Made by a program: the position numbers and the translations under genes. 64,000 nucleotides of DNA from IMG/VR virus record IMGVR_UViG_2721755846_000001, positions 5,152-69,151 of that record. One strand, written 5' to 3'. Below, piece after piece: positions 11,589 to 53,888 of this stretch; the first letter of the stretch is position 1, and each line of letters starts with the position of its first letter. The notes under the pieces are model-generated. The model worked only from the letters and a program-made list of their open reading frames with translations. It was not told where the DNA came from and made no database searches. The DNA is from a virus. Taxonomy: Duplodnaviria > Caudoviricetes.

Positions 11589-11915
11589 ATGGTTCAGAAG
11601 ACAGTTGTTATTTACACGGACGACCTCACCGGCAAAGAATCCGAAGAGGTTCAGACCTATGAGTTCACGCTGAACGGCGTGGCCTATGAGATCGACCTCG
11701 CGCCGGAAAGCTACGACCAGATGCTTGATGACTTCGGCCCCTACATGGAGAAGGGCCGCAAGACGGGTCGGGTAAAGGGCGCGCAGCCCAAGGCCAAGGC
11801 GGGAGGCCCCAGCGCTTCGGACATGCGGGCATGGGCGACTGAAAACGGGTACGAGGTGAGCCCCAGGGGCCGCGTCCCCGCTGGAGTCCGCGAGGCATAC
11901 GAAGCCGCCCACTGA
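11589..11915 (+). CDS. lsr2: Lsr2 nucleoid-associated protein / xenogeneic silencer
   Basis: MVQKTVVIYTDDL, YEIDL, and RAWAxENGYEVSPRGRVP with RGR AT-hook; only convincing plus-strand gene. Confidence 0.95.
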   Translation: MVQKTVVIYTDDLTGKESEEVQTYEFTLNGVAYEIDLAPESYDQMLDDFGPYMEKGRKTGRVKGAQPKAKAGGPSASDMRAWATENGYEVSPRGRVPAGVREAYEAAH

Positions 11916-11922
11916 CCACGAC

Positions 11923-11953
11923 AGAAGCCCCCGGCAAGGTTGCCGGGGGCTCT
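11923..11953. terminator. Likely bidirectional terminator after lsr2
   Basis: 12-bp inverted repeat AGCCCCCGGCAA / TTGCCGGGGGCT between convergent genes. Confidence 0.75.
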
Positions 11954-12004
11954 GCTATGCGCGGGCCGACCGGGGTACCCGCGGACCCCGACCGACCCGC
12001 TCGA

Positions 12005-12493
12005 TCAACCGCGGCTGGCCGCGGCGATCGTCTCGGCAGCGTGCTCCAGTACCTCTTGAAGGTCACGCTCCATCTGCGGGCGGTGCTCAGCGATCGTCGC
12101 CATGAACCAGCTGCCGCCCGTCGTCTGCCTGACCCAGTTGTGCCGGTTGCCGAAAACGGGGTGTCGCCAGCCGCGCTGATCGTCCAGATACCGCGGCAGG
12201 TTCGCCTCCTGCGGGTCTGTCATCCCGGCAACGATGCGCACCCCCAGACCGCGCGCCACACCCGCCTGGACAGCGACTCCGCGGGCCACACGACTGCGCA
12301 GGCCCGAATGCGCGGCGCCTTGCACAGGCAGAGCAAGGACGCGCCGCTTGGCGTCGTCCGCGGCCGGCTTCGCAGCGTCCCGCAAGGCCCTCCGAAGCTC
12401 GTCCGGAAGGGTCCGGTCGACCTCGCGCAGGGCGATCCCGGTACGACGCCACTCGTCTCCCAGCCGGACGTTGTACGTCGCCCTGGCAGCCAT
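12005..12493 (-). CDS. Neck / tail-completion protein (HK97 gp10-like)
   Basis: Start MAARATYNV overlapping upstream TGA; WRHPVFGNR..WV.Q motif. Confidence 0.65.
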   Translation of the reverse strand: MAARATYNVRLGDEWRRTGIALREVDRTLPDELRRALRDAAKPAADDAKRRVLALPVQGAAHSGLRSRVARGVAVQAGVARGLGVRIVAGMTDPQEANLPRYLDDQRGWRHPVFGNRHNWVRQTTGGSWFMATIAEHRPQMERDLQEVLEHAAETIAAASRG

Positions 12494-12909
12494 CAGCTCG
12501 TTGCCCGCGTGATGCCCGTCCGCTGCGCAGGCAACTTCACCTGGGTCTCGGAGAGGTCGCCCACCTTGCCCGAAAGGGGCTTGTATTCGAGGAGAATGCA
12601 GGTTGCCGTGTACTTGGGATTTGTCGTCGATGCAGCCGCAGAGGTGGGCCGAACTTCGACGGTGAATTCCGTCTCGTTGTTCCACAGCGGGTAGAACGTG
12701 GCGTCGATCTGAGCCGCCGCGTAATCCTGCTGGAAGTTGATGACAAAGCCATCGTCCTTGAGTCCGGCGACACGCTCACGGCCGGAACCGGAAAAGTTCG
12801 TTGTCTCGACTTCCGCCTTCGAAAGGTCTACTTCGACCGAGGAAGCGTGGTCAGAGAAGTTGACTCCGTTGATGACTATATAGCAGTCCCGCAGGACCAA
12901 TTTGGCCAT
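12493..12909 (-). CDS. Major tail tube protein
   Basis: 138 aa; ETTNFSG..RERVAGLKD motif; strong RBS. Confidence 0.85.
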   Translation of the reverse strand: MAKLVLRDCYIVINGVNFSDHASSVEVDLSKAEVETTNFSGSGRERVAGLKDDGFVINFQQDYAAAQIDATFYPLWNNETEFTVEVRPTSAAASTTNPKYTATCILLEYKPLSGKVGDLSETQVKLPAQRTGITRATS

Positions 12910-12972
12910 GGCTAAACTACCTTCTTATGGATTGATTGGGCCCGCGGAGGACTGCTCGCGGCGAGCTAAAGG

Positions 12973-13011
12973 GGCATGAAAAAAGGGCTAGACATATTTG
13001 CCTTCGCCCTT
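12973..13011 (-). terminator. Intrinsic terminator-like element upstream of major tail gene
   Basis: AAGGGC...GCCCTTTTTTCATGCCC. Confidence 0.55.
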
Positions 13012-13024
13012 GCTGTGTGCGGGA

Positions 13025-13258: not shown

Positions 13259-13260
13259 CG

Positions 13261-13602: not shown

Positions 13603-13612
13603 AGCTCCTCGC

Positions 13613-14996: not shown

Positions 14997-15263
14997 CTAC
15001 CGCCTCTTGTTCTGAGTCGGATAGATGGCCTTGTTCTCCGCCGGCGTCGCCTTCTTCACGGCCGGCGCGGCTGCCTTCTTCGGCGGCTCGGGGGCCGGCT
15101 CAGGCTCGATGGCGCCCAGGCGTTCGGCTTCCTCGCGCTTGACGAGGGTTCCGGGCGACCAGTGCAGCCAACGGGCCTCGGGGTCCGTCTCCAGGACCAC
15201 ACGGTCCCGCGCCTCAGTGAGGCACCAATGCTGATCAATCGTGATCCACTCGGGGCCGCTCAC
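14997..15263 (-). CDS. Small head-region protein
   Basis: 88 aa with PAENK tail typical of genes following capsid genes. Confidence 0.6.
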   Translation of the reverse strand: MSGPEWITIDQHWCLTEARDRVVLETDPEARWLHWSPGTLVKREEAERLGAIEPEPAPEPPKKAAAPAVKKATPAENKAIYPTQNKRR

Positions 15264-15847: not shown

Positions 15848-15936
15848 TGTCCATTTCCCTTCATTGGGTTGCGGACCACGCTTGGCCCAATGCCAAAGGG
15901 CCCGAGCGGTATGCCCGAGCCCTTTGCTGGTATCAC

Positions 15937-25601: not shown

Positions 25602-26438
25602 TCACTTGAGGCCTGCTGTTGCCGCCGCTGCCTTGACCTGGTCGTAGAACGCCTGCGCCGTGATGCCGGTCGGGGTCGGGATGGGAGCAGCGCCGATCAG
25701 ATGCGGCACGGTCACGTCGCCCTGCCTCTTGAGGAGCGTGGCCAGCTCACTGCCCTGGAACCATGCGCGGCCGTCCAGCCCCCACGATTCGCTCCACGAG
25801 TTGTCGACCCACACGCGGTCGTTGTCGGCGTCGAACTTCCGGACGAAGATCTCGTGACCGCCCGCCACACCCGAGCTGTAGTCGATGGTGATCTTTCCAT
25901 CGGCGCCTGGGGTGTACATGCTGTTCTCCCACTCGATGCCGAGGGAGACCGGTCCGGCCTGGAGTGCGGAGACCACGGCCGCGTAGCTGAACGCGTGCTG
26001 GTACTTGTCTGAGAAGCCCAGCATGACCAGGGCCTTGGCCAGAGTGAGGCCGTCCGAGCCGGTGTCGTCCGGCTCCCACTGACCGGGGTAGCTGTCGAGC
26101 CTCGTGAGCAGCCGGTAGAGGTTGACCGCGAAGGGCTCGGCCAACGGCCATAGCGAGCCGGCCGTGAACTCGCCCTTCGTGTCCGCCTTCGGGATCACGA
26201 CCGAGGAAACGCCGGTATATCCGAGCGCGTCGGTGCCGAGGTGCTCGGGCGCGTTGTTGGGGACGCACGACCCGAGGTTGGCCTGATCGAGGATCGGGAT
26301 GTGACGCGGCCACTCCACCGACCTGATCGCGCTCTTCGGCATGACGCCGACGGCATACGCCGCGCTGCGCGAGTCGTGCTTGACGTGGCGTCCGAGCCGC
26401 GGATCGGTCGGCGTATACCGGTGCGTGGTGATCGTCAT
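25602..26438 (-). CDS. Papain-like (C1-type) cysteine peptidase
   Basis: DQANLGSC, GGHEI, DNSWSESWG catalytic motifs. Confidence 0.8.
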   Translation of the reverse strand: MTITTHRYTPTDPRLGRHVKHDSRSAAYAVGVMPKSAIRSVEWPRHIPILDQANLGSCVPNNAPEHLGTDALGYTGVSSVVIPKADTKGEFTAGSLWPLAEPFAVNLYRLLTRLDSYPGQWEPDDTGSDGLTLAKALVMLGFSDKYQHAFSYAAVVSALQAGPVSLGIEWENSMYTPGADGKITIDYSSGVAGGHEIFVRKFDADNDRVWVDNSWSESWGLDGRAWFQGSELATLLKRQGDVTVPHLIGAAPIPTPTGITAQAFYDQVKAAAATAGLK

Positions 26439-26454
26439 TGCGGGATCCTCGCGG

Positions 26455-26493
26455 GGTATGAAAATGCGGCCCTCTGCATAAAAGGCCGCATTT
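26455..26493 (-). terminator. Intrinsic terminator
   Basis: AAATGCGGCC...GGCCGCATTTTCATACCC. Confidence 0.6.
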
Positions 26494-26499
26494 CACTGA

Positions 26500-26946
26500 A
26501 TGAAGAAATACAAAGATCGCGAAAATAGATTTCTGAATATCGCCTGAATATCGATCAAGGTCAGAGGTGAATAGAACCCTGAATGGATGATCAAGCCCCT
26601 GACCTGCAACTATTCAATCGCTATTTCGCGATCATGAACGCTGACGGATTAGCGTCGGACACTGATCGTTGATCATGCCTCTGACCTGCGGTTATGCGGC
26701 GATCATGCACGGATTTGCGTAGAGGGAAATCTTGGAGATAAGAGCGTAGCGGGTCCCCCGAGAGAATAGGCCGGGAGGACCCCCACCCCCCTACCCTTGA
26801 TCGTCGATCATGCCGCTGACCTGCAATGATGGAGCCCCTCGTCAACGATCACTGGTCCCCTATCCGAATGAATAGATCTCTTCAATTCCTCAGGGAGCAA
26901 GATCGCGAGCCGCCTGTATGGATCTATTCAGATATTCAGGATCCAT
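26500..26946. other. Probable packaging (cos) region
   Basis: AT- and GATC-rich non-coding DNA after HNH; minus-strand GGGTAGGGGGGTGGGGG tract; flanking direct and inverted repeats. Confidence 0.6.
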
Positions 26947-27240
26947 TCACCAGCGCTTCGATGCGATGATCGGCAACGGCTTGCGCCGATTACTCTTATT
27001 GATATTGCATCGTCGATGTGATGGCTTAAGCCATTGCACATCATCGGGATCATCACCACGTGCCAGTAGTACTGGCAATGGTGGATCGTGGTCTGCCTGC
27101 CATGACCAGGGTGTGAGGTAGTGCAAGCTCAGGTCGATGGCCTTGCCGCACAGGTGGCACACGGGTGGTGCCTCGCGCCTGAGCTGGGCTACAGCCGCAC
27201 GCCACCGTCCACCGCTGCGGCCGGCCCGCTTCGTCGGCAC
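26947..27240 (-). CDS. Packaging HNH endonuclease (HK97 gp74-like)
   Basis: CHLCG, DH, SHRRCN..K motifs. Confidence 0.9.
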   Translation of the reverse strand: MPTKRAGRSGGRWRAAVAQLRREAPPVCHLCGKAIDLSLHYLTPWSWQADHDPPLPVLLARGDDPDDVQWLKPSHRRCNINKSNRRKPLPIIASKRW

Positions 27241-27295: not shown

Positions 27296-28441
<1,146 letters not shown>

Positions 28442-28449
28442 CTATCTGC

Positions 28450-28483
28450 GGGCATAAGAAAAGCCGCCCTCGCCGGGGCGGCT
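28450..28483 (-). terminator. Late-leader terminator 2
   Basis: AGCCGCCC-CGGCGA-GGGCGGCTTTTCTTATGCCC. Confidence 0.7.
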
Positions 28484-28526
28484 GAAATCCGGCGCTGCCG
28501 CTCGTCGGGAGCGGAGCGCGCACAGC

Positions 28527-28550
28527 AAAAAGGCCCGCTCTCGGCGGGCC
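28527..28550 (-). terminator. Late-leader terminator 1
   Basis: GGCCCGC-CGAGA-GCGGGCCTTTTT. Confidence 0.75.
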
Positions 28551-28596
28551 GTGATCTAGGGTCAGGGCCCTTCCCGGGCACAGCTGACGTGGCTTC

Positions 28597-30231: not shown

Positions 30232-30777
30232 TCAGGGGCAGTCGTCGTGCTGCGCCCAATGGACCGTGGCGTGATCGATCGCCCAGTACGGCTCACCGGG
30301 CTCGATCAGCTGACGGCAGATCTGGCAGCGATGCGCCCAGTCACTCGGGTCAGAACTGGGGTGGGTCGCAGCGCTCGCATGATTGCGGCGGTCGTAGCCC
30401 GTCTGAGGCTGAGAGAAGGCAGAGGGCGGGACCGGGCGCCCAATAGCGCTCACACGGGCTGACGGAGGGCCCGCGGGCACCTCCGTGACTGTCGTCGCAT
30501 CGCGTCCGCCCGCACCGCAGTCATGCGCCGCGACGATCGCGAGGCCTGACGTCGGGACGGACGCGATGCGCTGCCGGAGTTTCCAGGGACGCCCAGCCTG
30601 TGTGATGACGTCGAAGGTGGCGCATCCGGCGATCAGCGCCGCCCTGTACGCGTTCACGTCCAGCGGCTGGGGGTCTGCGGCCGTCGCGAGTCCGGAGACG
30701 TTGGCGGCCAGCACGACGGCGCCGCACCTGTTGCATGTCGCGATCTTTATCGCGGTGTCTATCAGGTGATCGTTTAT
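30232..30777 (-). CDS. Zinc-finger hypothetical protein, probable ATA start
   Basis: AAAGGA RBS 7 nt before in-frame ATA; extension adds CNRCG. Confidence 0.55.
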   Translation of the reverse strand: MNDHLIDTAIKIATCNRCGAVVLAANVSGLATAADPQPLDVNAYRAALIAGCATFDVITQAGRPWKLRQRIASVPTSGLAIVAAHDCGAGGRDATTVTEVPAGPPSARVSAIGRPVPPSAFSQPQTGYDRRNHASAATHPSSDPSDWAHRCQICRQLIEPGEPYWAIDHATVHWAQHDDCP

Positions 30778-30794
30778 TTGGTCTTCCTTTCTCG

Positions 30795-31056
30795 TCCGTC
30801 GCTACTTGTCGCTATGGGGGGTAGTTCCTAACCCCCCACAGATATAGCGACACGATCATGTCTTTTGATCAAGGGATAGCTACGAAAGCACTACACCGCA
30901 GGTCAGAGGTAGCGACGAAAGCACTACGGACTAGCGACGGGCACTACATGATCTTGAAACAGGTAGCTACCAAAGCACTACATGATCTTGTAAACAATCT
31001 TGAAAGCACTACACCGCAGGTCAGAGGGCACTACAGGTAGCTACGCCGCAGGTCAG
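30795..31056. repeat. Iteron-like array, putative replication origin
   Basis: GCACTAC x6, TAGC[TG]AC x6 plus 2 inverted, CCGCAGGTCAG x3; lower GC; directly downstream of helicase. Confidence 0.75.
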
Positions 31057-32378
31057 CTTTCCATCGGAGGCTGGACGTATTCGGGTCCCTGGCGGACCGT
31101 TGCGGCGACCGCTTCGACCTGTCGCAGGCCCGTGTAAGTGATCTCATAGCGCGCCGTTCCGGGGACTTTCCGAAGCAGGTCTTTCTTGATCAGACTATTG
31201 ACGTGCGTCCCGATCCGGCCGCGCTCTTCCTTGGTCAGTCCGAGCGCTGTGGCGACGCCTGTCGTCGAGACCCCTACCTCTCCGAACTCGGCCACCGCGT
31301 GCAGCACCTGAGACTGCTTCCCGGTGACGATGATCTCGACTGCGGCCGGCGGTGTGATGCCCTGCATCTGGAAAGCGAGCGAGTCGAGCAGCGGAAGGCC
31401 TTCGAACTTGATCTCCGGCGCCTCCGGGATGTCCTTCTGGAACCGGCTGACGAAGGTGACCTGAGTCGTGCCCGGCTCGCGCCGCACCTCGAACTCGGCG
31501 TCGACGGCGCCGTCCCACGCGGTCGCCCCGCGTCCGCGCCCGCCTTCCGTGCCGCTGTGGTGCACCAGCAGCACGCAGGCCTTCGTGCGCTCCTTCAGGG
31601 CGTCCAGGGCGCTGATGATGACGCCCATCTCGGTGTTGTCGTTTTCCTTCACGCCGACGGTGCAGCGCGCCTGCGTGTCGAAGATGATGAACTCGAAGCC
31701 GCCCAGCGTGCAGTACGCGATCAGCTGCCGCATCTGGTCGGCATCGCCCACCTGGACGGCTTTGGGGTACCAGGCGACCGCTGAGACTGTCGCCTGGTGC
31801 TTCTCCCACGCCGCGATGCGTTTCTTGGTGCCGCGGGCGCCCTCGGCCACGACGTACAGGACGCGTGCCTTCTGCGTGCCGTATCCGGCCCATCTCAGGC
31901 CCGTGGAAACGCACATAGCCATATCGAGAGCAATGAAGGACTTGAGGCTCTTGGGCGGTCCGAAGATCCTGCACAGCTGTTCCTTGCAAAGAAAGTCATT
32001 GATGAGCGGCTCGGCGTCGGGAATGAGCATGATCCCGTCTCTGTCCATCACGTCCACGGCGAAGGCTTCTGCCTGCTCTGCCATGCCTTCTTCCGATGTG
32101 AGCCGCTCGGTGCGTTCCTGGACGTACTCAAGCCGTGATTCGTCTTTGAGCCGCAGCTCGCGCTTGATGCCGCTTTTCTCGCGACGGTCCCTGGCTCGGT
32201 CGTCGTGCACTGCGAGCTTGACCAGCTCTTCGAATTCCTCGCGCTGGTGATCGGGGACCAGAAGGTTGATCGCCGCATATCTGGAATCGTCCGTTTCGTT
32301 GGCTCGGGCATGAGCCAGGGCATCGAGCTGCGCGGGCGCCAGCCATCGCCCCGGTTGCGCAAAAGGGGATTCCGTCAC
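31053..32378 (-). CDS. RepA-like AAA helicase (AAA_25) with C-terminal HTH
   Basis: GPPKSLKSF Walker A, YVVAEG, IIFDT, LLVHH, RGATAW. Confidence 0.9.
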   Translation of the reverse strand: MTESPFAQPGRWLAPAQLDALAHARANETDDSRYAAINLLVPDHQREEFEELVKLAVHDDRARDRREKSGIKRELRLKDESRLEYVQERTERLTSEEGMAEQAEAFAVDVMDRDGIMLIPDAEPLINDFLCKEQLCRIFGPPKSLKSFIALDMAMCVSTGLRWAGYGTQKARVLYVVAEGARGTKKRIAAWEKHQATVSAVAWYPKAVQVGDADQMRQLIAYCTLGGFEFIIFDTQARCTVGVKENDNTEMGVIISALDALKERTKACVLLVHHSGTEGGRGRGATAWDGAVDAEFEVRREPGTTQVTFVSRFQKDIPEAPEIKFEGLPLLDSLAFQMQGITPPAAVEIIVTGKQSQVLHAVAEFGEVGVSTTGVATALGLTKEERGRIGTHVNSLIKKDLLRKVPGTARYEITYTGLRQVEAVAATVRQGPEYVQPPMES

Positions 32379-38375: not shown

Positions 38376-38789
38376 CTATGCCGTCCCTCCCATGATCGCG
38401 GCCAGTTCGCGGTCCATGTCGACGCCGTCCATCTCGTGGCACAGCGGCACCGCCGCATAGGTCAGCGTCAGGAACTGGTCGATGTCGTCGGCTATCGCAT
38501 GGAGTTCGCAGCGCCCGTCGGGGCTGTCCAGCGTGATGTGAACTTCGACGGGGTTGCACCGCCAGACGCGGACGTCGCCGCCTGTGCGGGGTTCGAGCTG
38601 CCGGGCGAGGCCGTCGGTGAGCAGGTCGCGGGCGAACGTCCACACCTGGACAGTGCCGTGCATCTCGTCACGGGTGACCATGACGACGGCGTAGGGATCA
38701 TCCGGCTCGTAGATCAGTTCGGAGCCTTCGAGCGGGCGGACGTGCCCGCGTCCGAGGATCAGTTCGAGGTCGATCGGTAGGGTTATCAC
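38376..38789 (-). CDS. SsgA-like protein (SALP; sporulation cell-division family)
   Basis: YEPDDPYAV, WTFARDLL..GL, GDVRVW, L.SPDG, FL..T...VP...E motifs; 137 aa. Confidence 0.9.
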   Translation of the reverse strand: MITLPIDLELILGRGHVRPLEGSELIYEPDDPYAVVMVTRDEMHGTVQVWTFARDLLTDGLARQLEPRTGGDVRVWRCNPVEVHITLDSPDGRCELHAIADDIDQFLTLTYAAVPLCHEMDGVDMDRELAAIMGGTA

Positions 38790-41481: not shown

Positions 41482-41771
41482 GAGCCATCACCGTCCGGGA
41501 TCGTCGTCCTGATCGACCAGCGGGTGACGCTCTCGGCAGCGTCCCCCGTGCCGGTCACGTGCTTGTGCCCTTCGTCGTTCAGGTCGTAGACCCGCGTCCA
41601 GACCCACAGTTCGAATGGGCTGATTCGGATCTCTGCCGTGCAGTCCGGTCGGACACCCAGGCGACGGCACAGCTCTGCGACCAGGTCTCCGGTCTCCAGC
41701 GGCTGGCTCTGTTCGGCGATGCTCACCGGCAGGTGCTCGAAGTCGGCGGGGACGTCCGTGGGGCGCCCCAT
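41478..41771 (-). CDS. Hypothetical protein
   Basis: Start MGRPTD overlapping upstream TGA. Confidence 0.5.
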   Translation of the reverse strand: MGRPTDVPADFEHLPVSIAEQSQPLETGDLVAELCRRLGVRPDCTAEIRISPFELWVWTRVYDLNDEGHKHVTGTGDAAESVTRWSIRTTIPDGDGS

Positions 41772-45976: not shown

Positions 45977-46056
45977 GGTGCTACGTGCTGCACCGCAGGC
46001 CAGCACCGCTTTAGGGTGCTAGCAGAGGTGCTACGCGTAGCAGCGGACGGTGCTAC
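45977..46056. repeat. clt-like locus with 8-bp repeats GGTGCTAC
   Basis: Perfect copies at 45977, 46027, 46049; variants at 45984, 46015; inverted variants near 46001 and 46037; abuts traB stop. Confidence 0.75.
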
Positions 46057-48149
46057 CGGCCTTGATCGAGCGAGGCGCGCTCAATGCCGCGTCTCGTGGT
46101 GCGCTTGCCGTCGTCGGTGTAGCCCGCGATGTCCTTCGTTTCGATGCCGTGCGGCTTCAGGTTCGCGGTGACGGTCTCGCCCTTCCATCCGTCGTAGATG
46201 TCGGGGCGCAGCGCGGCGAGCCTCGCGGCAACGCGCTCGTTCCAGATGCTCTTCTCGTCTGCGGCGACGACCCTGCGGACGTCGGCGACCAGATCGAATG
46301 TCGGCTCGCCGGACTCGGGGGCCTGGCCGATCGCGTGGCCGGTGACGTTGCCGTATTCCTCGCGCACGCTGCGGGCCCGCTTCGCGACCAGCTCAGCCGC
46401 GGGCGCGTCGACGAACGAACCGCACACGATGATCGGCTCGTCGCCTTCGCCGGACATCCAGCAGATGCCCTTGTCGGAGCGGCTGAACATCGTTGCCCGG
46501 TACCCCGCCTTGTACATCGACGTACTGAGAATCATGTCGTTCTCGATCTGGCCCATGACCTTCAGCGCGAAGCGGAGCACCGCGTTCGCTGAGATGCCGG
46601 TGGGCAGCGACTTCTTGTCGGGGCGCTGCGTGCCGAACATCGCGATCATCCCGAGCGCCGGCCCGCGCTTCACCAGGTCCGTGCAGATCGACTCGATCTC
46701 CGCGCCGTACTTCTCGTGTTCAAAGGCGACCTGGCATTCGTCCAGCGCAACGGCGATCGGATGCAGCCCGTACCGCTTGTCGCTGGCCAGCTGGCTCGTC
46801 ACCTTCGACTCGGGGCAGATGGCGTGCGGCAGTTCCTTGATGACCTTCGCCCGCCGCCGCAGTTCTGCCTTCAGTTCCCGCAGCGCGTACAGGCAGTACT
46901 CGACGTCTTCGTCTTCCTCGCCGGAGCGGTAGCGGTGCGCTACGCACTCCAGCGTGCGGAAGTCGCCGGTGCCCTTGAAGTCGAACATCAGCAGCACAGC
47001 CCGCGGATCGAGGGCGCACATCAGCAGCAGCAGCCGCATCAAGAACGTCTTGCCCATGCGGGGAATCGACCCGATGACGACGGACGCGAACATCAGCGTC
47101 ACGCTGATCCACTGCATGCGCTGGTCGTTGCCGAAGACGACGGGCTTGAACAGGTCGACGGTCCCCGACTTGAGCAGCGGCCACGCGGGCTTCTGCGTCT
47201 CGTTCATCGGGCGGTCCCCGACGTACAGCACGAGACGCCCTTCATGCTCGGCAGGATCGCCAGCCGGCCACACGCAGCCCAGCTTGCGGCGCAGCCCCGA
47301 GGCCATCGCCTTGCGCTCTTCCATCACGTCTTCCGGCGTGACGCCGTAGGGGAGATCGAGTTCGGCGCGGTAGCCGGGGCCGTCGCGGCAGATCTCGGAG
47401 GTGAACCGCATGCCGTCCATGTCGCCGCCCCGCTTCAGCGCGGCGTTGATCTGCGTGTTGCCGATAGCTCCGAGCGCCCGAATCACGATGGACGAAGTCA
47501 GCTTCTGGACTTCGGTCTTCAGCACAGCAGGCCCGATGACGGGGGCGTCCAGGTGCTGGCCTGCGTAGCCGAGACCCATCACGCCCGCCGCGGCGAACAC
47601 CCACAGCCAGCCGGGCGCCATTACGTACAGCGTCGCCGCCAGACCCAGGCCGATGGTTCCCGCAACGACCGTGGCGAGACCCCGCAGCCGCACCCGTCCC
47701 GCCCGCAGCCGGGCGAGGCTCATGTATTCGCTCGCGTCTTCCTGCCGCACCGCGTAGTCCCGCAGCGGCGCCGCCTCGCGGTCCCACAGCCAGCGGTTCG
47801 CGGACGTCACCAGGCGGGCAGCTCCGGCCGGTGCACGCGCCGCGAGGCGGGCCGGATACACACCGCCGACGGTGCGCACCCCGTGGTACAGCGACGCATA
47901 CGCGACGTGCGCACCGACGTGCCGTGCGGTTGCCAGGAAGTCACGGCGGTTCGTCATCCAGTTCGCGATGACAGGGCGCCGCTTCTCGGTCACCACGCCG
48001 GGCGCGGGCAAGTCCGGGTTGTCGACCAGGACGGGCGCCGCGTCGGGTTCCAGGCTGTACGTCTCGGTATCGGGGTCGGCGTCGTCGACTTTGGTGAACG
48101 TCACCGGCCGGTTGTCCAGGGCGCCGCGCGTGCCGTCGGGAATGGTCAT
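46053..48149 (-). CDS. traB: TraB, FtsK/SpoIIIE-family conjugative dsDNA translocase
   Basis: Start MTIPDG overlapping upstream TGA; two TM helices; SIPRMGKT Walker A; DFKGTGD; VALDECQ Walker B; KRGPALG, TQRP; C-terminal winged helix. Confidence 0.9.
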   Translation of the reverse strand: MTIPDGTRGALDNRPVTFTKVDDADPDTETYSLEPDAAPVLVDNPDLPAPGVVTEKRRPVIANWMTNRRDFLATARHVGAHVAYASLYHGVRTVGGVYPARLAARAPAGAARLVTSANRWLWDREAAPLRDYAVRQEDASEYMSLARLRAGRVRLRGLATVVAGTIGLGLAATLYVMAPGWLWVFAAAGVMGLGYAGQHLDAPVIGPAVLKTEVQKLTSSIVIRALGAIGNTQINAALKRGGDMDGMRFTSEICRDGPGYRAELDLPYGVTPEDVMEERKAMASGLRRKLGCVWPAGDPAEHEGRLVLYVGDRPMNETQKPAWPLLKSGTVDLFKPVVFGNDQRMQWISVTLMFASVVIGSIPRMGKTFLMRLLLLMCALDPRAVLLMFDFKGTGDFRTLECVAHRYRSGEEDEDVEYCLYALRELKAELRRRAKVIKELPHAICPESKVTSQLASDKRYGLHPIAVALDECQVAFEHEKYGAEIESICTDLVKRGPALGMIAMFGTQRPDKKSLPTGISANAVLRFALKVMGQIENDMILSTSMYKAGYRATMFSRSDKGICWMSGEGDEPIIVCGSFVDAPAAELVAKRARSVREEYGNVTGHAIGQAPESGEPTFDLVADVRRVVAADEKSIWNERVAARLAALRPDIYDGWKGETVTANLKPHGIETKDIAGYTDDGKRTTRRGIERASLDQGR

Positions 48150-49201: not shown

Positions 49202-50870
49202 TCAGAAGTCGTGGATGCAGTGCGGGCACGACCAGATCTCTTCGCCGGACGTGGCGTCAGGCATCTCGGCACTGGCTTCGTCGGAGTGCCGCTTGCGCAT
49301 CTCGGCAAGCTCCGCGTTGTGGTCGCGGATGAGATCCGCCTCGGCCTGGAAGACGTGGAAGCACTCGCCGCACACGCGGTAGATGTCCGCGCCCATCGGC
49401 TCGCTGCGGCCGTGACTCCAACACCAGTCACCGGGCAGCGGATCGGGCCAGTCGGCGTCAGGCATTGGCCACCTGCCCGCGCACCCACAGGTCATAGGCG
49501 GCGAACGCCTGCGCCATCGTGCCGTCGTCGGCGTATACGACTTGTGCCAATAGGCAGGAGTCGCAGCCCCCGCAGGGCGGGTCCCATGTCCAGCCGCCGC
49601 ATGACTTGTAGGCGGGACAGTCCTCGTTGGCGCAGAAGAAAACCCCGACCAGTTCGAACCATTGGTCGGGGCAAGTGCAGTCAGTCATGAGCGCGGTCCG
49701 CCTCGGATATGAGATCCGAGTTCCATACCGTGCTAGTGCGGCCGTTGGCCCATTCCACGTCCACGAACTGAGCGTCGGGGTAGGTCGCAGATTCGCGGGG
49801 CCGTACGCTCTTTGCCTTGCCGGGGCTGTCGTCGTACCAGACGTCATCGCCCGGCTTGAATTTGGTCATCAGGTTCCTTTCGTTGCAGTGTTGCTCAGCC
49901 CCACCAGGAGCACAGCAGCCATTGCGCCTGCTCCTGGGTCGGCGTCATGCCGAGGACTGCGAGAGCGTCGCGCAGCTTGTCGTCCCACTCGGGACTAACC
50001 GTGAAGTCGACGTGCTTGCAGTCGCCGCGGTACGCCGTGAGGACCGAGCCCTTAGCGGCGAGCGTGTACATGGGGTATTCGCCGGAACAGTACGACTTGA
50101 ACTCGACTCCGAGGCGGGCCTCTGCCTCGCGCTCGCGGTCGAAGAAGCCGTCAACCATGTAGTCGGTTTCCGTGAATCCGACGGACGCCATCAGCCGCTT
50201 CTCTGCGGCCGACTCGAAGTCGTTCTCTTCGACGTCAAGCCAATCGAGCCTGAGTTCGCCGTACTCGCCGACTTCGCGTACCTTCCACTCCGCGTCGCCC
50301 CCGGCGAGGTCGTAGCCGTAGACGAGAATGCCGTTCGTTGACTGACCCATCAGGTTCCCTTCCGTGACAAGGCGTCGATCAGCCGCCGCGCTTCAGCGAC
50401 ATTGGCGAGCGCCCACTTGTGGTGGTAGTAGCGGTTCCGGCAGTGACGCAATGCGTTGCCGTACGTGCGCTTCCATGTCGTCGTGCCGCCGTAATAGGTA
50501 GAGCCTGTCTGCGAGCAGATCAGGCACACCCAGCGCCACCGGTCTTTGTCTTTGCGGATGATGACGCAGGTGGTCACGGCTTCCGCGCCTTGTGGAATGC
50601 CCGGACTTCAGCGCGAGTCCACGCAAGGCGGACCCGGAGCTGAGTGAAGTTGACACACGCAATCGCTTCGTTGCGCTCGATGCGTACGCTGAAGTTCCGG
50701 CACCGCGGACACGTCGCCGTGAGATTGGCGCCGTTGGGGCAACCCGGTCCCGGATCAGTCGGCTTGCAGTAGTACGAGTAATCCGAATAGCACTCGCAGC
50801 CGAACGCGTTGACGCGATAGCCGTGCCACCCGCAGCCCGTACAGTCGACGCGATAGCGCTGCGGCTTCAC
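49202..50870 (-). other. Cluster of small phage hypothetical genes, several Cys-rich
   Basis: ORFs ending at 49202, 49458, 49681, 49895, 50350, 50574 with overlapping starts and stops. Confidence 0.55.
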
Positions 50871-51787
50871 GTCCCCTTCCTTTCCTGTAGCCGGTAGCCA
50901 CTGCGCACGGTGGCCTCGCCCTGCCGATAGCCGCCGCGCCCGTTCGCGCTGGCATACGCGTTCGCGAGCGCCTCTATGGCTTCGTCAATGGGGATGCTGT
51001 CGCCGCATGCGGCGCGCGCGGCCCACAGCGTGGCGTTGTTAAGGTTCCCGTCTTCGGCATTGCGGACGGTTTCGACCAGGCCTGAGATGCCACCCGTCTT
51101 CCGCGGCTGCGCGAACAGCGGCTTCGGCGGCGGGGGCTTCTCACGGCACAGCTCGACAAGCCACCGCGGGGCAGGCGCTATCGGCGTCGCATTCTCTGCG
51201 ACGTACCGGCCCTTGGATGTGACGGAGCCGGCGCCTAGCACATACCCTCCGTGCTGGCCCCCGTTGCCGCGGACATCGAGACTGCCCTTGACGATGGACG
51301 CCTGCGAAGCGCGGACACCGGGAGGCCACGAGAAATACAAATGCAAACCCATCGACCCGGTTGTCACGCGGTACGTAGCATTCAGTTCTTCCCAGTCGCC
51401 GCCGTGTCGTTCACATACCGCACGCAGTACGTCGTGCCCGTCGACCCAGGGTCCGAGCTTTTCGTGAAGGTCTTCGTACGCCGTACCGCGTAACTGATAC
51501 TCAGCCTTTGCTATGTCACAGTCCAGAATCAGAAGACCGGACTGCCGCGCCGCAACTGCTGGATTGGCGAGCGGCGACCAGGTCCACATCTCGATAACCC
51601 GGTCAAGGTCGCTGGTCACTTCCTCCGGCCAGCGCACTTTGTACGGTTTGTTTGTGCCCGGATAAAGTAGGTGCGGCTGCTTGTCGATGACGTCGCCGGA
51701 CTCCGGGCACACCGTTCCGGCAGGGTTACACGGGAAGATCGACAGGCGTTGTTGAATGGCGCCGATCGCGTAGCCGATCAAGCTCAT
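50867..51787 (-). CDS. Bifunctional DNA primase/polymerase (Prim-Pol)
   Basis: IFPC, KQP, LLILDCD, TGSMGLHLYF, LDVRG..GYV, AP.WL; TTA codon at Leu99. Confidence 0.9.
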   Translation of the reverse strand: MSLIGYAIGAIQQRLSIFPCNPAGTVCPESGDVIDKQPHLLYPGTNKPYKVRWPEEVTSDLDRVIEMWTWSPLANPAVAARQSGLLILDCDIAKAEYQLRGTAYEDLHEKLGPWVDGHDVLRAVCERHGGDWEELNATYRVTTGSMGLHLYFSWPPGVRASQASIVKGSLDVRGNGGQHGGYVLGAGSVTSKGRYVAENATPIAPAPRWLVELCREKPPPPKPLFAQPRKTGGISGLVETVRNAEDGNLNNATLWAARAACGDSIPIDEAIEALANAYASANGRGGYRQGEATVRSGYRLQERKGT

Positions 51788-51909
51788 CGCGAAGTCCCTT
51801 CTTCATCAAACGGGCGGGGACGGGGTGAGCACGCACCGCCGTCAGGGGAAGCACCCGCCCCCGCCCGCATGACGAAGGGGGGCCCGTTCCGAGGCGGGCC
51901 CCCCTGGGA

Positions 51910-52251
51910 TCACTCGCCGTTCAGCGCGGCGTGAGCTTCTTCGAACGCGGCGCGCGCCACGTCCAGCGCCTTGCCCGCCGCTTCGAGAGCCGGCCCGACG
52001 TGGGCGCCCTCGCCCTGTACGGCCTCGAACTTCAGGCGCGCCGCTTCGAGCCGCGCGGCGTGCGTGTCGAAGGCCTTCTGCGCCTTGTCGAACTTCACCG
52101 TGGCGCGCTCGAACTCCCCCGCCACCTTCGCGAAGGTCAGCGGCTTCCGGCCTCGCTTCTTCGGCTCCGACTCCGGCTCGGGGGTCTCGCCCTCGACCCC
52201 GCCGTCCCAGTCCTCATCGTCCTCGTACGGCTCTGCGACAACTTCGCTCAT
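51910..52251 (-). CDS. Coiled-coil hypothetical protein
   Basis: 113 aa; acidic N-terminus, KKRGRKP. Confidence 0.65.
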   Translation of the reverse strand: MSEVVAEPYEDDEDWDGGVEGETPEPESEPKKRGRKPLTFAKVAGEFERATVKFDKAQKAFDTHAARLEAARLKFEAVQGEGAHVGPALEAAGKALDVARAAFEEAHAALNGE

Positions 52252-52278
52252 GCGCGGGTCTCTCTCTTCCTGTGTCGT

Positions 52279-52315
52279 GGCATCAAAAAAGGACGCGCCC
52301 GGCGGGGTCGCGTCC
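52279..52315 (-). terminator. Intrinsic terminator
   Basis: GGACGCG...CGCGTCCTTTTTTGATGCC. Confidence 0.7.
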
Positions 52316-52332
52316 GTCTGGGGTGGGGCGGG

Positions 52333-53223
52333 TTACGCGCCGTACGTCGCCGCGATCATGCGAGCCTGGCCGTCCGTCATGCCCTCGGGATTGACGCCCT
52401 TGGACTGAAGGAACGCGGCCAGCTGCGGGTCAAGCGGCGCTGCGGGTGCAGCCTGCGCAGGGTTCGCCGCAGGTGCTGAAGGGGCGGGGCTCGGGGCAGG
52501 CACTCCCCACGGCTGAGGGGCAGGCGCACCACCCGTCATCGGGGGCGCAGCCTGTGCAGCAGGGGCCTGTACAGGAGCCGAGGCAGCCGCCCCCCACTGC
52601 CCCTGCGGAGGGCCCGCGGGAGCCGCCTGGGGTGCAGCCTGCGTGTTCTGCCACGGGTCGTACGGCAGCTGCGCAGAGGCGTACTGAGGGTGGCCGTTAC
52701 CCGAGGGAGCAGGGGCGGGCGCAGAACCGTAGGAAGGGGCAGCCGGCGCCTGTCCGTACGCAGGCTGCGGGGCTGCGCCGTACGGTGCCTGCGTAGGGCC
52801 CGCCTGCGGCTGGGCGAACTGCTGCCGCGGATGCGTGGCGATGTACTGCTGAGCGCCCGCGGCGTCCTGATCGGAGAAGTCGGCCAGGTAGTAGGCGCCG
52901 GACTTCTGCCCCTGTGCGGGGCTCTGCGTCAGCCGCCCCAGCACCATGGCACCGAGCTGCGTCTTCAGCTGCGGCACGAGAGCCTTGCCGCCGATGGTCG
53001 TTCCGGCCAGGACGGTGGGCTGCCCGGTCTGCGGATCCATCAGGTCGATGATGACCACGTCGGCTTCGACCATGTCCACGGGACCTTCGTCCTGCTGGAA
53101 CGTCTTCGACGTGACGCGGTCCGGATAGATCAGGAACAGCCTGCCGAGCCAGTCGGCGTGATCGCGCGGCGAGAAGAACCCGGAGTTCTTCGCGGGCTGC
53201 TTGAAGGGCGAAGGGGTTGTCAC
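52333..53223 (-). CDS. Putative ssDNA-binding protein with Pro/Ala/Gln tail
   Basis: ~130-aa beta core plus disordered tail; located between exonuclease and primase. Confidence 0.6.
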   Translation of the reverse strand: MTTPSPFKQPAKNSGFFSPRDHADWLGRLFLIYPDRVTSKTFQQDEGPVDMVEADVVIIDLMDPQTGQPTVLAGTTIGGKALVPQLKTQLGAMVLGRLTQSPAQGQKSGAYYLADFSDQDAAGAQQYIATHPRQQFAQPQAGPTQAPYGAAPQPAYGQAPAAPSYGSAPAPAPSGNGHPQYASAQLPYDPWQNTQAAPQAAPAGPPQGQWGAAASAPVQAPAAQAAPPMTGGAPAPQPWGVPAPSPAPSAPAANPAQAAPAAPLDPQLAAFLQSKGVNPEGMTDGQARMIAATYGA

Positions 53224-53699
53224 TGTGCCTCTTTCTCTTATTCGTGGCAGGGGTCGGACGGGTGGTTAGTGGAACGGGAGGGGGCGTTCGCGTCGGCGCC
53301 GCAGCCGAAGGCCACGAACGCGACAACGCCCAGACTGATCGCGAAGAAGACCCAGCTGATGACCTGGCGCCTCACGGCATCTCGGCCTGGTAGCGGGCAA
53401 TGCTCTTCGCTGTACGCCGTCCGTTGATGTCGAGCGGCCCGAGCCGGTACGCCTTGCGCCGCTCAGGCTTCGCTTCTGCGTTGCGCTGCTCTGCCTCGCG
53501 GCGCTTCTCTTCCCGGAGCGTGCGCATCGCGCCGCGCCCTTGCTTGCCGTGCCAGCTCACTTGAGGTTCCTTCCTGTCCACGGCATCTCGTTTCGTCGGG
53601 CGCCGCAGCCCGCGCACGTCCAGCGCAACGGGCCACGCGTCATTTCCGCCCAGCAGTGCAGCTTGGGGAACAGGCTGTGCAGCAGAGCCACCAGGGCGA

Positions 53700-53888
53700 T
53701 CACGCGATGCGCTCCGATCGGGACTCTTCGAGTAGCTCCCGCACTTCCTTTTCGGGGTACCGGCGCACGCCGCCCACGGTCCGCACGGTGGTGAGCTTTC
53801 CGGCCCTCGCCCAGCGGGTTACTGTCCGCGGGTCAACGCGGAACAGCGTCGCCACTTCGGTGGGAGTGAGTAGGGATTCGGCTTCCAA
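53700..53888 (-). CDS. bldC: BldC-family MerR-like DNA-binding protein
   Basis: TTG start after AAGGAGG; LLTPTEVATLFRVDPRTVTRWARAGKLTTVRTVGGVRRY closely matches Streptomyces BldC. Confidence 0.85.
   Translation of the reverse strand: MEAESLLTPTEVATLFRVDPRTVTRWARAGKLTTVRTVGGVRRYPEKEVRELLEESRSERIA

What the first reader, a model, noticed from the sequence alone, without database searches (positions are those of the whole stretch)
11589..53888. Dispersed host-development toolkit: BldC, SsgA-like, Rpf, Lsr2 and a TTA codon
Seen: four separate homologs of Streptomyces life-cycle proteins in one phage, plus a TTA codon in the primase. Known: BldC restrains entry into sporulation, SALPs position sporulation septa, Rpfs aid spore germination, Lsr2 silences AT-rich DNA and metabolite clusters, and TTA needs bldA tRNA. 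Inference: the phage may time and steer host differentiation, for example keeping hyphae vegetative for replication or conjugation, or entering spores. Combined with TraB this suggests a mycelium-adapted lifestyle.
Basis: partly seen in the sequence, partly recalled or inferred. Interest (0 to 1): 0.8.

Follow-up and report, generated by a model that had tools for sequence, protein, structure and literature searches.

The report
Streptomyces prophage carrying host-development gene homologs
A temperate Streptomyces phage carries its own copies of four host growth-and-sporulation gene families, kept in place across related prophages but read out in separate programmes, and the rare TTA codon in its primase looks like chance.

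Summary
The window is about 64 kb of a 69-kb provirus record. It encodes a two-domain Lsr2 (11589-11915 +), a secreted Rpf-NlpC/P60-LysM hydrolase (27296-28390 -), an SsgA-like protein (38376-38789 -) and a BldC-family wHTH (53700-53888 -). It also has one in-frame TTA in a Prim-Pol gene.

All four genes sit in the same order in relatives G001, G010 and G255. G009 has three. G136 has three on the terminase contig and a BldC-like gene on another contig. More distant relatives (terminase 70% identity or less) have one or none.

The genes do not form one unit:
- lsr2 is an antisense, leaderless unit with its own promoter, inside the tail operon.
- The Rpf gene follows conserved terminators at the head of the late region.
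- The SALP and BldC genes are embedded in early and replication operons.

The phage SALPs form their own fast-evolving clade. The window's BldC keeps the oligomer interface and Arg30 but replaces the minor-groove His46.

The TTA is TTG in two relatives and the segment is missing in a third, so it is at background rate.

Steering of host development is plausible but untested. The idea is already published for SsgA, WhiB and Lsr2 (Hardy 2020). A phage BldC and this combination seem new. This scan noted a similar set on other DNA (e1-5897345).

The parts
11555..11582 (+). Promoter-like element of lsr2 (TGGACA-16 nt-TAGGAT). The -10 hexamer ends 6 nt before the ATG, which implies a leaderless mRNA.
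   Evidence: Consensus scan found 2 sites against 0.2 expected. Sequence read. The TA(G/C)(G/C)AT hexamer 6-7 nt before the ATG is kept in 5 of 5 lineage members aligned.
11589..11915 (+). Lsr2-like nucleoid-associated protein (108 aa). It is a lone + strand gene between the tail assembly chaperone (11123-11515, -) and the major tail gene (12005-12909, -).
   Evidence: PF11774 and PF23359 both above cut-off. phrog_1223, 3.9e-27. The neighbouring genes were identified. An RGR motif is visible in the sequence.
11922..11954 (.). GC-rich hairpin between the convergent lsr2 and major tail genes; a likely bidirectional terminator.
   Evidence: MFE -28.7 kcal/mol, z = -5.28, 0 of 200 shuffles fold as well.
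26400..27082 (.). AT-rich island (minimum 40% GC against a window mean of 65.7%) just downstream of the Rpf gene. A candidate Lsr2 target or late regulatory region.
   Evidence: 150-bp sliding GC profile. Binding is an inference only.
27296..28390 (-). Secreted cell-wall hydrolase: Sec-type signal peptide, Rpf transglycosylase-like domain, NlpC/P60 domain, LysM domain.
   Evidence: Pfam 121.2, 72.4 and 26.8 bits. The motifs CESG, DCSG and HVG are visible in the sequence. Relatives are 54-70% identical.
28462..28550 (-). Two intrinsic-terminator-like hairpins with T tracts directly upstream of the Rpf gene.
   Evidence: One is kept in G001 and both in G010. Sequence read.
30723..31064 (.). Second AT-rich island (45-47% GC), in the intergenic region between the helicase-like gene and the next gene.
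38376..38789 (-). SsgA-like protein (SALP, 137 aa). Its GTG start abuts the end of the upstream ORF (38789-39139), so it is operonic with early/middle genes.
   Evidence: PF04686, 70.9 bits. PDB SsgB-type chains. Own clade in the tree. ORF coordinates.
46053..48149 (-). FtsK/TraB-like DNA translocase (context for the 'TraB' remark). The true start is the ATG at 48149, which overlaps the stop of the upstream gene.
   Evidence: phrog_1358, 3.1e-25. Pfam FtsK_SpoIIIE 22.2 bits, below the cut-off of 24. 12 plasmid records match and 0 phage records match. Frame analysis.
50867..51787 (-). Prim-Pol primase/polymerase gene carrying the single credible TTA codon (codon 99, 51493-51491).
   Evidence: PF09250, 91.1 bits. 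TTA position. TTG at the same site in G001 and G010.
53700..53888 (-). BldC-family winged-HTH protein (62 aa from a TTG preceded by AAGGAGG). An alternative 73-aa form starts at the ATG at 53921, which overlaps the exonuclease stop as ATGA.
   Evidence: NCBIfam HTH_BldC 89.7 bits against cut-off 77. PDB 6ama/6amk. Start-site reading. The upstream gene is an exonuclease (phrog_1674, 7.8e-47).

Best explanation
The window is most of a ~70-kb temperate Streptomyces siphovirus that integrates by a large serine recombinase. Over a long period this lineage has kept four genes of host origin as separate accessory genes, each wired into a different phage programme. They are not one toolkit operon.

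(1) lsr2 is an autonomous, leaderless, antisense unit in the tail operon. It is most likely made in the lysogen. I infer that it works like the prophage silencer CgpS, coating AT-rich phage DNA to hold lytic genes off, with possible spill-over onto AT-rich host loci. The only stretches under 50% GC in a 150-bp window are 12784-12942, 26.4-27.1 kb and 30.7-31.1 kb.

(2) The Rpf-NlpC/P60-LysM protein is a Sec-exported double muralytic enzyme at the head of the late region, behind conserved terminators. It is most likely a late, antitermination-controlled wall-opening enzyme that supplements the amidase-LysM endolysin in a thick-walled, compartmented mycelium.

(3) The SALP is made with early/middle genes. 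It most likely interferes with or redirects FtsZ/SALP-dependent septation in infected hyphae.

(4) The BldC-like protein is coupled to the exonuclease/replication operon. It most likely binds direct repeats as head-to-tail oligomers. With His46 changed, its primary targets are probably phage DNA (as an architectural factor, regulator or recombination directionality factor). Cross-talk with the host BldC regulon is possible but secondary.

What is shown: identities, domains, synteny, conservation and sequence signals. What is inferred: every functional step. The TTA in the primase is a neutral synonymous variant.
For: The element is a phage: terminase phrog_9 at 1e-60, portal, prohead protease, major head and tail genes, and a tape measure with an SLT domain. 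The relative G010 has a 510-aa Resolvase-domain recombinase and an Amidase_2+LysM endolysin, and host genes begin beyond about 138.8 kb.

Synteny: all four genes lie in the same order in G001, G010 and G255. G009 has three. G136 has three on the terminase contig.

Constraint (NG86 dN/dS): BldC 0.14-0.30, Lsr2 0.18-0.33 and Rpf 0.25-0.40, against terminase 0.06-0.20.

Separate wiring: the lsr2 promoter and hairpin are conserved. Terminators upstream of rpf are conserved in 3 of 3 genomes checked. The BldC start is coupled to the exonuclease gene. The SALP start abuts the upstream ORF.

BldC residues, mapped onto PMC5859096 with the alignment: L11, E16, F21, R22, V23, T27, T29, R30, W31, T42, G44, R47 and R48 are kept, while H46 is V. 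In one search, 9 of 57 family clusters lack His46 and share an ESRSERIA-type tail.

SALP: the phage clade is separate (13 rows at SH-aLRT 95). It scores 66-74 bits on the SsgD model, where host paralogs score 95-231.

Precedents: CgpS, and Lsr2 in about 35% of Streptomyces phages (PMC7650747 and PMC8612146, passages read).
Against: No expression or binding data exist. No RNA run could be listed, so the timing of each gene rests on sequence signals alone.

SALP dN/dS of 0.48-0.90 may mean relaxed constraint rather than adaptation.

The BldC-like genes of G136 and G255 keep His46, so the changed specificity applies to a sub-clade, not to the whole lineage.

Kronheim 2023 (PMC10276819, passages read) reports that infection triggers early sporulation and says phages replicate only in growing cells. 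That makes a development-delaying phage BldC attractive and favours the rival reading.

The four genes are not unusually well retained: by my count from the table, about 30 of 64 non-structural ORFs are shared with both G001 and G010.
Confidence: 0.55

Rival explanations
1. One reading: the genes form a functional host-development toolkit. Phage BldC holds hyphae vegetative, countering the host's escape into sporulation. The SALP re-patterns septa. The Rpf enzyme wakes spores or opens walls. Lsr2 rewires AT-rich host loci. Together with TraB they adapt the phage to life in a mycelium.
For: All four families have documented developmental roles in the host, according to the papers cited by Hardy 2020 and the BldC papers. 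The set is co-retained in 3 full relatives, and largely retained in 2 more. Infection accelerates sporulation and phages need growing cells (PMC10276819), which gives a motive. The BldC oligomer-interface residues are conserved, so mixed filaments with host BldC are conceivable. The TraB-like gene is of the plasmid type.
Against: There are four unlinked transcription contexts. His46 is replaced in the window's BldC, and H46E abolishes DNA binding in the host protein. The SALP is not an ortholog of any host paralog tested and evolves fast. G009 lacks the BldC-like gene and more distant relatives lack most of the set. The TTA timing element fails. No phenotype data exist.
Confidence: 0.25
2. The BldC-like protein is the recombination directionality factor (excisionase) of the serine integrase, and has nothing to do with development.
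For: It also matches the excisionase domain TIGR01764 (33.4 bits, cut-off 28.8) and phrog_66 'excisionase and transcriptional regulator'. BldC and Xis share fold and cooperative direct-repeat binding (PMC5859096 and PMC12266134, passages read). From recall only, some serine-integrase elements use small Xis-like HTH RDFs.
Against: It scores much higher on the BldC model (89.7 bits) than on excisionase models. It is about 70% identical to host BldC. It sits more than 45 kb from the integrase end, inside the recombination/replication operon. G009 lacks it.
Confidence: 0.12
3. The genes are passengers: recently captured host DNA, or an artefact of provirus boundaries that fuse a phage with a neighbouring element.
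For: The right two-thirds of the window has higher GC (67-71%) than the structural third (61-66%). The TraB-like gene resembles plasmid genes.
Against: The same gene order holds across the whole length in prophages of different Streptomyces genomes, with integrase and host flanks outside the block. The proteins are 37-87% identical between relatives with dN/dS below 1. The phage SALP clade and the phage-type BldC sub-clade are distinct from the host copies in the same genomes.
Confidence: 0.05

Closest known systems
Streptomyces phages with host-regulator homologs: Dagobah (ssgA), Alderaan and Coruscant (whiB), Coruscant, Endor1 and Endor2 (lsr2). Hardy et al. 2020, PMC7650747.
   Same: These are phage-borne homologs of Streptomyces developmental and nucleoid regulators. 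The authors already propose that phages manipulate host development (passages read).
   Different: Dagobah's SALP is only 31% identical to this one (E 2e-3). No BldC or Rpf enzyme is reported in the passages I read. Here four families sit in one temperate lineage, with synteny shown across relatives.
CgpS, the prophage-encoded Lsr2-like silencer of Corynebacterium glutamicum CGP3, and the phage Lsr2 survey (Sharma et al. 2021, PMC8612146).
   Same: A prophage-borne Lsr2-type protein. Such genes are enriched in temperate, lower-GC phages, and Lsr2 is reported in about 35% of Streptomyces phages (passages read). 389 of 50,697 phage records match this protein.
   Different: Best identity to any isolated phage is 46% (phage Success). 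Here the gene is an antisense leaderless unit within the tail operon. Silencing activity is not tested.
Host BldC (S. coelicolor and S. venezuelae; PDB 6AMA and 6AMK; Schumacher et al. 2018, PMC5859096).
   Same: About 70% identity. A small wHTH without a coiled coil. The head-to-tail interface residues, Arg30 and Arg47/48 are conserved.
   Different: His46 is Val here and Met or Ala in the sub-clade. Lys26 is Arg. There is a distinct C-terminal ESRSERIA tail. The gene sits in a phage replication operon.
Rpf motifs in actinophage tape-measure proteins and phage transglycosylases (Piuri & Hatfull 2006, as cited in PMC4255298).
   Same: Rpf-type and NlpC/P60-type wall-degrading modules carried by actinophages. 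611 phage records match part of this protein.
   Different: Here it is a free, signal-peptide-bearing three-domain enzyme, not part of a virion protein. No isolated-phage record covers 80% or more of it. The same architecture is common in Streptomyces genome and metagenome proteins.
Phage Hau3 UUA codons in the terminase gene (Antonov et al. 2023, PMC10732093).
   Same: A rare UUA in an essential Streptomyces phage gene, proposed there as a sensor of host life-cycle stage (passages read).
   Different: In Hau3 the UUAs head frame-disrupting 10-nt inserts. Here it is a plain synonymous Leu codon that relatives write as TTG.

Membership tests
Lsr2 family | N-terminal dimerization domain (PF11774) | tested here: met
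   65.7 bits against cut-off 29.6, residues 1-60.
Lsr2 family | C-terminal DNA-binding domain (PF23359) with an RGR-type AT-hook-like motif | tested here: met
   54.6 bits against cut-off 26.9. 'PRGRVP' is visible in G000 and 'RGR' in all relatives. That RGR is the critical motif is recalled, not from a call.
Lsr2 family | Binds and bridges AT-rich DNA and represses transcription | not testable with these tools
   Only AT-rich islands were located.
SsgA-like proteins (SALP) | Single SsgA domain (PF04686) in a protein of about 130-145 aa | tested here: met
   70.9 bits against cut-off 25; 137 aa. PDB SsgB-type chains at 5.8e-15 and 3.8e-14.
SsgA-like proteins (SALP) | Orthology to a named host paralog (only the SsgD equivalog model NF052496 was available) | tested here: not met
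   70.2 bits against cut-off 185. Host SsgD scores 200-231 bits and other host paralogs 95-118 bits. The phage proteins form a separate clade.
SsgA-like proteins (SALP) | Controls FtsZ and septum placement | not testable with these tools
BldC family | Score at or above the curated cut-off of NCBIfam HTH_BldC (NF033787) | tested here: met
   89.7 bits against cut-off 77.
BldC family | Small wHTH lacking the MerR coiled-coil and effector domains | tested here: met
   62-73 aa. Only HTH_17, MerR and MerR_1 N-terminal HTH matches.
BldC family | Head-to-tail interface (L11, E16, F21, R22, V23, W31, I40, T42, L43, G44) and base-reading Arg30 | tested here: met
   All identical except I40V and L43V, from the alignment mapped to the residues named in PMC5859096.
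BldC family | His46 in the AT-rich minor groove (H46E abolishes binding) | tested here: not met
   Val in G000, Met in G001 and G010. 48 of 57 family clusters have His; 9 of 57 (the phage-type clusters) do not. G136 and G255 keep His.
Rpf (resuscitation-promoting factor) | Transglycosylase-like Rpf domain (PF06737) with the catalytic Glu and the Cys pair | tested here: met
   121.2 bits against cut-off 27. 'KCESG' and 'WPVC' are visible. The role of these residues is recalled.
Rpf (resuscitation-promoting factor) | Equivalog-level match to a named Rpf (NF046106 or NF046107) | tested here: not met
   135.9 bits against cut-off 180, and 103.7 against cut-off 200. Membership is at domain level only.
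bldA-dependent (TTA-containing) gene | In-frame TTA in a real coding frame | tested here: met
   Prim-Pol codon 99.
bldA-dependent (TTA-containing) gene | TTA conserved in orthologs, or enriched over background | tested here: not met
   0 of 3 relatives have TTA in Prim-Pol: TTG, TTG, and segment absent. Credible TTAs per prophage are 1, 0, 1 and 0, at unrelated sites.
TraB-type conjugative translocase | FtsK/SpoIIIE ATPase domain | tested here: inconclusive
   Pfam 22.2 bits, below cut-off 24. phrog_1358 'FtsK/SpoIIIE-like' at 3.1e-25.
TraB-type conjugative translocase | Closest relatives on actinomycete plasmids | tested here: met
   12 plasmid records match; the best is 54% identical over 94% of the query on an 18,451-bp Streptomyces plasmid. 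0 phage records match.
TraB-type conjugative translocase | clt/TRS 8-bp repeats bound by the protein | not tested
   Noted by another first-stage entry (e1-6201448). I did not examine it.

The most novel reading that the evidence does not exclude
This temperate phage lineage treats the mycelium as its habitat. During infection or induction, a phage BldC variant and a phage SALP would hold the hypha vegetative and re-pattern cross-walls. A secreted Rpf/NlpC-P60 enzyme would open walls, and a plasmid-type TraB would move phage DNA between compartments. The phage genome would then spread inside the colony like a conjugative plasmid, in addition to spreading as virions. In the lysogen, Lsr2 would keep all of this silent.
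Probability: 0.12. Interest if true: 0.85.

Novelty: new variant of a known kind. Interest (0 to 1): 0.5.

Why it matters
Streptomyces phages can replicate only in growing hyphae, and infected colonies respond by sporulating early (PMC10276819). A phage lineage that stably keeps its own BldC, SALP, Rpf-type hydrolase and Lsr2 gives four concrete, separable genes with which to ask whether phages counter that escape.

The phage-type BldC sub-clade, with His46 replaced and a new tail, is a natural specificity variant of a structurally solved regulator. The antisense leaderless lsr2 unit is a clean candidate for a prophage silencer in Streptomyces.

If the genes prove phage-centred, that warns against reading 'host-development homolog' as 'host manipulation'.

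Tried and rejected
Rejected readings and dead ends:

- I first took the signal-peptide ORF 41771-42688 for the Rpf. It has no Pfam, NCBIfam or PHROG match, so I rejected it. A motif search located the true Rpf gene.
- My GC3 gene call produced a + strand 'g8' (11957-12694) next to lsr2. Its dN/dS of about 1, together with PHROG matches on the - strand, showed it was a miscall over the major tail gene.
- The long Arg-rich N-terminus of ORF 46053-48971 and its TTA at 48773 are out of frame. The real gene there is 48146-49027.
- A megablast of 20 kb of the window against phage records found nothing.
- The IMG/VR pattern scan with the SALP found no relative. Relatives were reached through BldC and the terminase instead.
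- Rfam at gathering threshold found only a tRNA. There is no ydaO-type riboswitch before the Rpf gene.
- TRF found no BldC-box-like direct-repeat array. I did not search for degenerate AATT-N repeats.
- No WhiB-like or other developmental regulator turned up in 20 further small ORFs scanned with Pfam.
- Sequencing runs: no RNA holder was listed.
- In a sample of 401 Streptomyces genomes, the SALP matched only the centre genome at E <= 1e-25. That threshold misses the more divergent SALPs of G255 and G136. The lineage proved too rare in the sample for co-occurrence statistics.
- Complex prediction, structure prediction, fold search, the search of protein representatives and the protein-atlas search were not used. 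No claim here rests on binding or on a fold.
- Supplements are closed and I did not ask for them. Supplementary Tables S7/S8 of PMC10023795 (Pfam domains in actinobacterial prophages) and the gene tables of PMC7650747 and PMC10276819 could already list SsgA, HTH_17/BldC or Rpf domains in prophages. That bears on novelty.
- The claim that a phage-encoded BldC-family gene is not in print rests on two searches: 'BldC'+'phage' (39 papers, 15 listed) and 'BldC'+'prophage' (10 papers, 9 listed). I read titles and abstract starts, plus passages of PMC12266134, where D29 Gp36 is only a structural look-alike of BldC.

Full report
WHAT THE WINDOW IS

The window is bases 5152-69151 of a 69,151-bp virus record classed as a provirus, with CheckV completeness 100. 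Nearly all genes run on the minus strand.

The left third (about 0.5-25.6 kb) is a siphovirus structural module:
- tape measure with a C-terminal SLT domain, portal and prohead protease
- major head protein, tail terminator, tail assembly chaperone and major tail protein
- large terminase (phrog_9, 1e-60)

The right two-thirds holds replication, recombination and many small genes:
- AAA_25 helicase-like gene and C-5 methylase
- Prim-Pol
- Cas4-type exonuclease
- endonuclease VII
- a weak sigma-factor match

An Amidase_2+LysM endolysin lies just left of the window. I read it in the record and confirmed it by Pfam in relative G010.

G010 is a Streptomyces sp. genome. There the same element runs from a 510-aa Resolvase-domain recombinase (about 68.1 kb) to about 138.5 kb. 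Beyond that come high-GC3 ORFs that I read as ordinary host genes; I did not scan them against any family library. The DUF6415/DUF6879/XRE-DUF5753 cassette at the left end of the record is shared with G010, so it is prophage DNA and not host flank.

The host genus of the window itself is not shown directly. The closest prophages are in genomes titled Streptomyces sp..

THE OBSERVATION

All four homologs are real.

- Lsr2 (11589-11915, +) has both Pfam domains above cut-off.
- The SsgA-like protein (38376-38789, -) matches PF04686 at 70.9 bits and SsgB-type PDB chains.
- The BldC-like protein (53700-53888, -) passes the curated NCBIfam BldC cut-off, 89.7 bits against 77. It is about 70% identical to the chains of 6AMA and 6AMK, which are the BldC-DNA structures (PMC5859096, data-availability passage).
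- The Rpf is at 27296-28390 (-). It has a Sec-type signal peptide (my reading of the sequence), an Rpf domain (121.2 bits), NlpC/P60 (72.4 bits) and LysM (26.8 bits).
- The TTA is codon 99 of the Prim-Pol gene.

THE TTA IS NOISE

My gene call had 5 in-frame TTAs in 18,478 codons.
- Two lie upstream of the likely true start of ORF 15260-15991.
- One lies in a doubtful + strand ORF.
- One, at 48773, is out of the real coding frame. The real gene there is 48146-49027.

That leaves the Prim-Pol codon. At the homologous Leu, G001 and G010 read TTG, and G009 lacks the segment. None of the three relatives has any TTA in Prim-Pol. Credible TTAs in the aligned parts of the relatives number 0 (G001), 1 (G010, in a tail gene) and 0 (G009). 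Streptomyces phages usually avoid UUA (PMC10732093, passage). One stray synonymous TTA fits that background. The only tRNA gene in the window is tRNA-Asn.

RELATIVES AND CO-OCCURRENCE

I used the large terminase as lineage marker and searched each relative with the four proteins. 'TerL' is terminase identity to the window.

| Relative | TerL | What it carries |
|---|---|---|
| G004 (13-kb fragment) | 86% | Lsr2; the other sites are off the fragment |
| G001 | 85% | 4 of 4 (BldC 87%, Rpf 73%, Lsr2 60%, SALP 58%) |
| G010 | 83% | 4 of 4 |
| G136 | 80% | Lsr2, Rpf and SALP on the terminase contig; see note below |
| G255 | 79% | 4 of 4 in the same order (SALP 44%, BldC-like 51%) |
| G009 | 76% | 3 of 4; genome-wide only the host BldC plus one weak hit |
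| G005 (77% complete) | 70% | the Rpf enzyme only |
| G138 | 60% | none near the terminase |
| G006, G007, G008 | 49% or less | none, apart from weak partial hits in G006 |

Note on G136: the terminase contig ends about 450 bp past the SALP. A 62%-identical BldC-like gene lies 14.5 kb into another contig. That distance would fit continuity, but continuity is unproven.

Gene order and spacing match the window. About 30 of 64 non-structural ORFs are shared with both G001 and G010 (my count). So the four belong to the conserved half of a mosaic genome and are not uniquely retained.

The lineage is rare. In 401 sampled Streptomyces genomes, 3 have a terminase at 79% identity or more, and those three carry the SALPs.

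Matches in 50,697 isolated-phage records:
- BldC: 1 record, an unannotated faecal fragment, at E <= 1e-5.
- SALP: 0 records at 1e-5 and 10 at E <= 5. The latter include Dagobah's annotated SsgA at 31% identity.
- Lsr2: 389 records.
- Rpf protein: 611 records match part of it, and none covers 80% or more.

EACH GENE IN ITS CONTEXT

lsr2. It is the only credible + strand gene in the structural module. It lies between the tail chaperone and the major tail gene. A TGGACA-16 nt-TAGGAT element ends 6 nt before the ATG. The -10-like hexamer at that distance is kept in 5 of 5 relatives aligned, which implies a leaderless mRNA. A hairpin of -28.7 kcal/mol follows the stop codon. This is the anatomy of a moron expressed independently of the late operon.

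The phage proteins share an MAQK(I/V)VT.YTDDLTG start, with MVQKTVVIYTDDLTG in the window itself, and are 40-48% identical to the host Lsr2 paralogs of G010. The only stretches under 50% GC in a 150-bp window are 12784-12942 (49%), 26400-27082 (minimum 40%) and 30723-31064. Silencing of those sites by the phage Lsr2 is my inference, by analogy with CgpS (passages).

Rpf enzyme. Two intrinsic-terminator-like hairpins lie directly upstream. One is conserved in G001 and both in G010. They are preceded by an AT-rich promoter-like stretch. The layout resembles a late-promoter/terminator unit read through by antitermination, which is an inference. That would make the enzyme the first late product. 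It is additional to the amidase-LysM endolysin.

The three-domain architecture is widespread. All but one of the best 120 of 7,637 matching clusters listed carry PF06737+PF00877, mostly with LysM. The exception is the window's own shorter call, P0186, which lacks PF06737. Many sit in Streptomyces genomes under the name 'transglycosylase family protein'.

SALP. It starts at the last base of the upstream ORF and is flanked by small conserved ORFs. Of 755 matches, only about 13 clusters are 49% identical or more, and then identity drops to 46% or less. In a quick IQ-TREE run, 13 of these rows form a clade at SH-aLRT 95. Together with three more divergent prophage SALPs and P0014 they make 17 rows at 93, apart from host SsgD and from the ultra-conserved host SALP. 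I recall that ultra-conserved protein as SsgB. dN/dS is 0.48-0.90, the highest of the four genes. NG86 values in such GC3-biased DNA are only qualitative.

BldC-like. An ATG at 53921 overlaps the exonuclease stop as ATGA. A strong AAGGAGG precedes the TTG at 53888, and both features recur in G001. Either way the gene belongs to the exonuclease/replication operon.

I mapped the residues named by Schumacher et al. onto the alignment.
- Kept: the head-to-tail interface (L11, E16, F21, R22, V23, W31, T42, G44; I40V and L43V are conservative).
- Kept: the phosphate contacts T27 and T29.
- Kept: the base-reading R30 and the wing residues R47 and R48.
- Changed: K26 and K33 are Arg.
- Changed: His46, the minor-groove residue whose H46E mutant no longer binds DNA, is Val.

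Among 57 family clusters, 9 lack His46 (V, M or A), and all 9 carry an ESR(S/T)ER(I/S)A tail. The other 48 have His. The G136 and G255 genes keep His46, so the change marks a sub-clade. dN/dS is 0.14-0.30.

TraB-like gene. The true ORF is 46053-48149. It matches phrog_1358. It matches 12 actinomycete plasmid records, the best at 54% over 94% of the query, and no isolated-phage record. It is kept in G001 (73%), G009 (74%) and G010 (38%). I did not test the clt repeats.

READING

The set is real, old and lineage-specific, but it is not one unit. There is one gene with lysogen-type wiring, two embedded in early/replication operons, and one at the head of the late region.

I therefore favour separate, mainly phage-centred roles (confidence 0.55). 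The host-development programme is a live rival (0.25). It draws support from reports that infection hastens sporulation and that phages need growing hyphae (PMC10276819), and from BldC's published role in prolonging vegetative growth (title and abstract). The RDF reading of BldC (0.12) and the passenger/artefact reading (0.05) are less likely.

KNOWN OR NEW

Phage Lsr2 is common (PMC8612146). A phage ssgA, and the idea of developmental manipulation, are published (PMC7650747). Rpf/NlpC-type modules in actinophage virion proteins are known (PMC4255298, citing Piuri & Hatfull).

I found no paper describing a phage-encoded member of the BldC family or this four-fold combination. Supplementary tables that I could not open might list such domains.

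This scan's own notes hold a follow-up on another genome with the same kind of set and the same verdict (e1-5897345). I treated it as a lead only.

LIMITS

Several of them share contig lengths across, which hints at more lineage members. That is not verified.

Noticed in passing
window 12005-12909 (-): The major tail gene appears as two overlapping reading frames: 12493-12909 (phrog_4574 'major tail protein') and 12005-12685 (phrog_11991). This could be a frameshifted or two-part tail tube gene, or a sequencing frameshift.
   Followed up: no
window 28462-28630 (-): An AT-rich promoter-like stretch is followed by two intrinsic terminators just before the Rpf gene. One terminator is conserved in G001 and both in G010. 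The layout resembles a lambda PR'-tR' late antitermination unit.
   Followed up: partly
window 48146-49027 (-): A 293-aa protein with several hydrophobic segments and a C-terminal excisionase/MerR-like HTH tail. Its stop overlaps the TraB-like start as ATGA. The apparent 972-aa 'TraB' ORF is an artefact of an open wrong frame over this gene.
   Followed up: partly
window 59667-59740 (-): Phage-borne tRNA-Asn (GTT), Rfam 69 bits. It is the only tRNA in the window and is not a bldA-type tRNA-Leu.
   Followed up: no
G012 (Nonomuraea typhae) C22:13270-15894 and C18:28448-29118: BldC-like genes (47-48% identity to the phage protein) lie directly beside SsgA-like genes at two separate loci, on the same strand. 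This suggests a recurrent BldC-like/SALP pairing outside this phage lineage.
   Followed up: no
G255:C2:1179953-1180330 and G136:C52:25350-25736: A second, more divergent SALP lies 26-30 kb beyond the first in two relatives. This would be at or past the right end of the window's record.
   Followed up: no
record bases 1-3600 (left of the window) and G010:C1:70797-73369: A DUF6415 / DUF6879 / XRE-DUF5753 cassette lies between the lysis genes and the serine integrase. It is shared by both prophages, so it is phage cargo (possibly a defence or regulatory module) rather than host flank.
   Followed up: partly
window 25602-26438 (-): A papain-like peptidase gene (phrog_16701, 4.6e-39; weak Peptidase_C1 match). 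It is present in the window but has no counterpart in G001, G010 or G009.
   Followed up: no
window 1-32000 versus 32000-64000: There is a GC step: the structural third is 61-66% GC and the early/replication part 67-71% GC. This fits a mosaic origin, although synteny with relatives spans both parts.
   Followed up: partly
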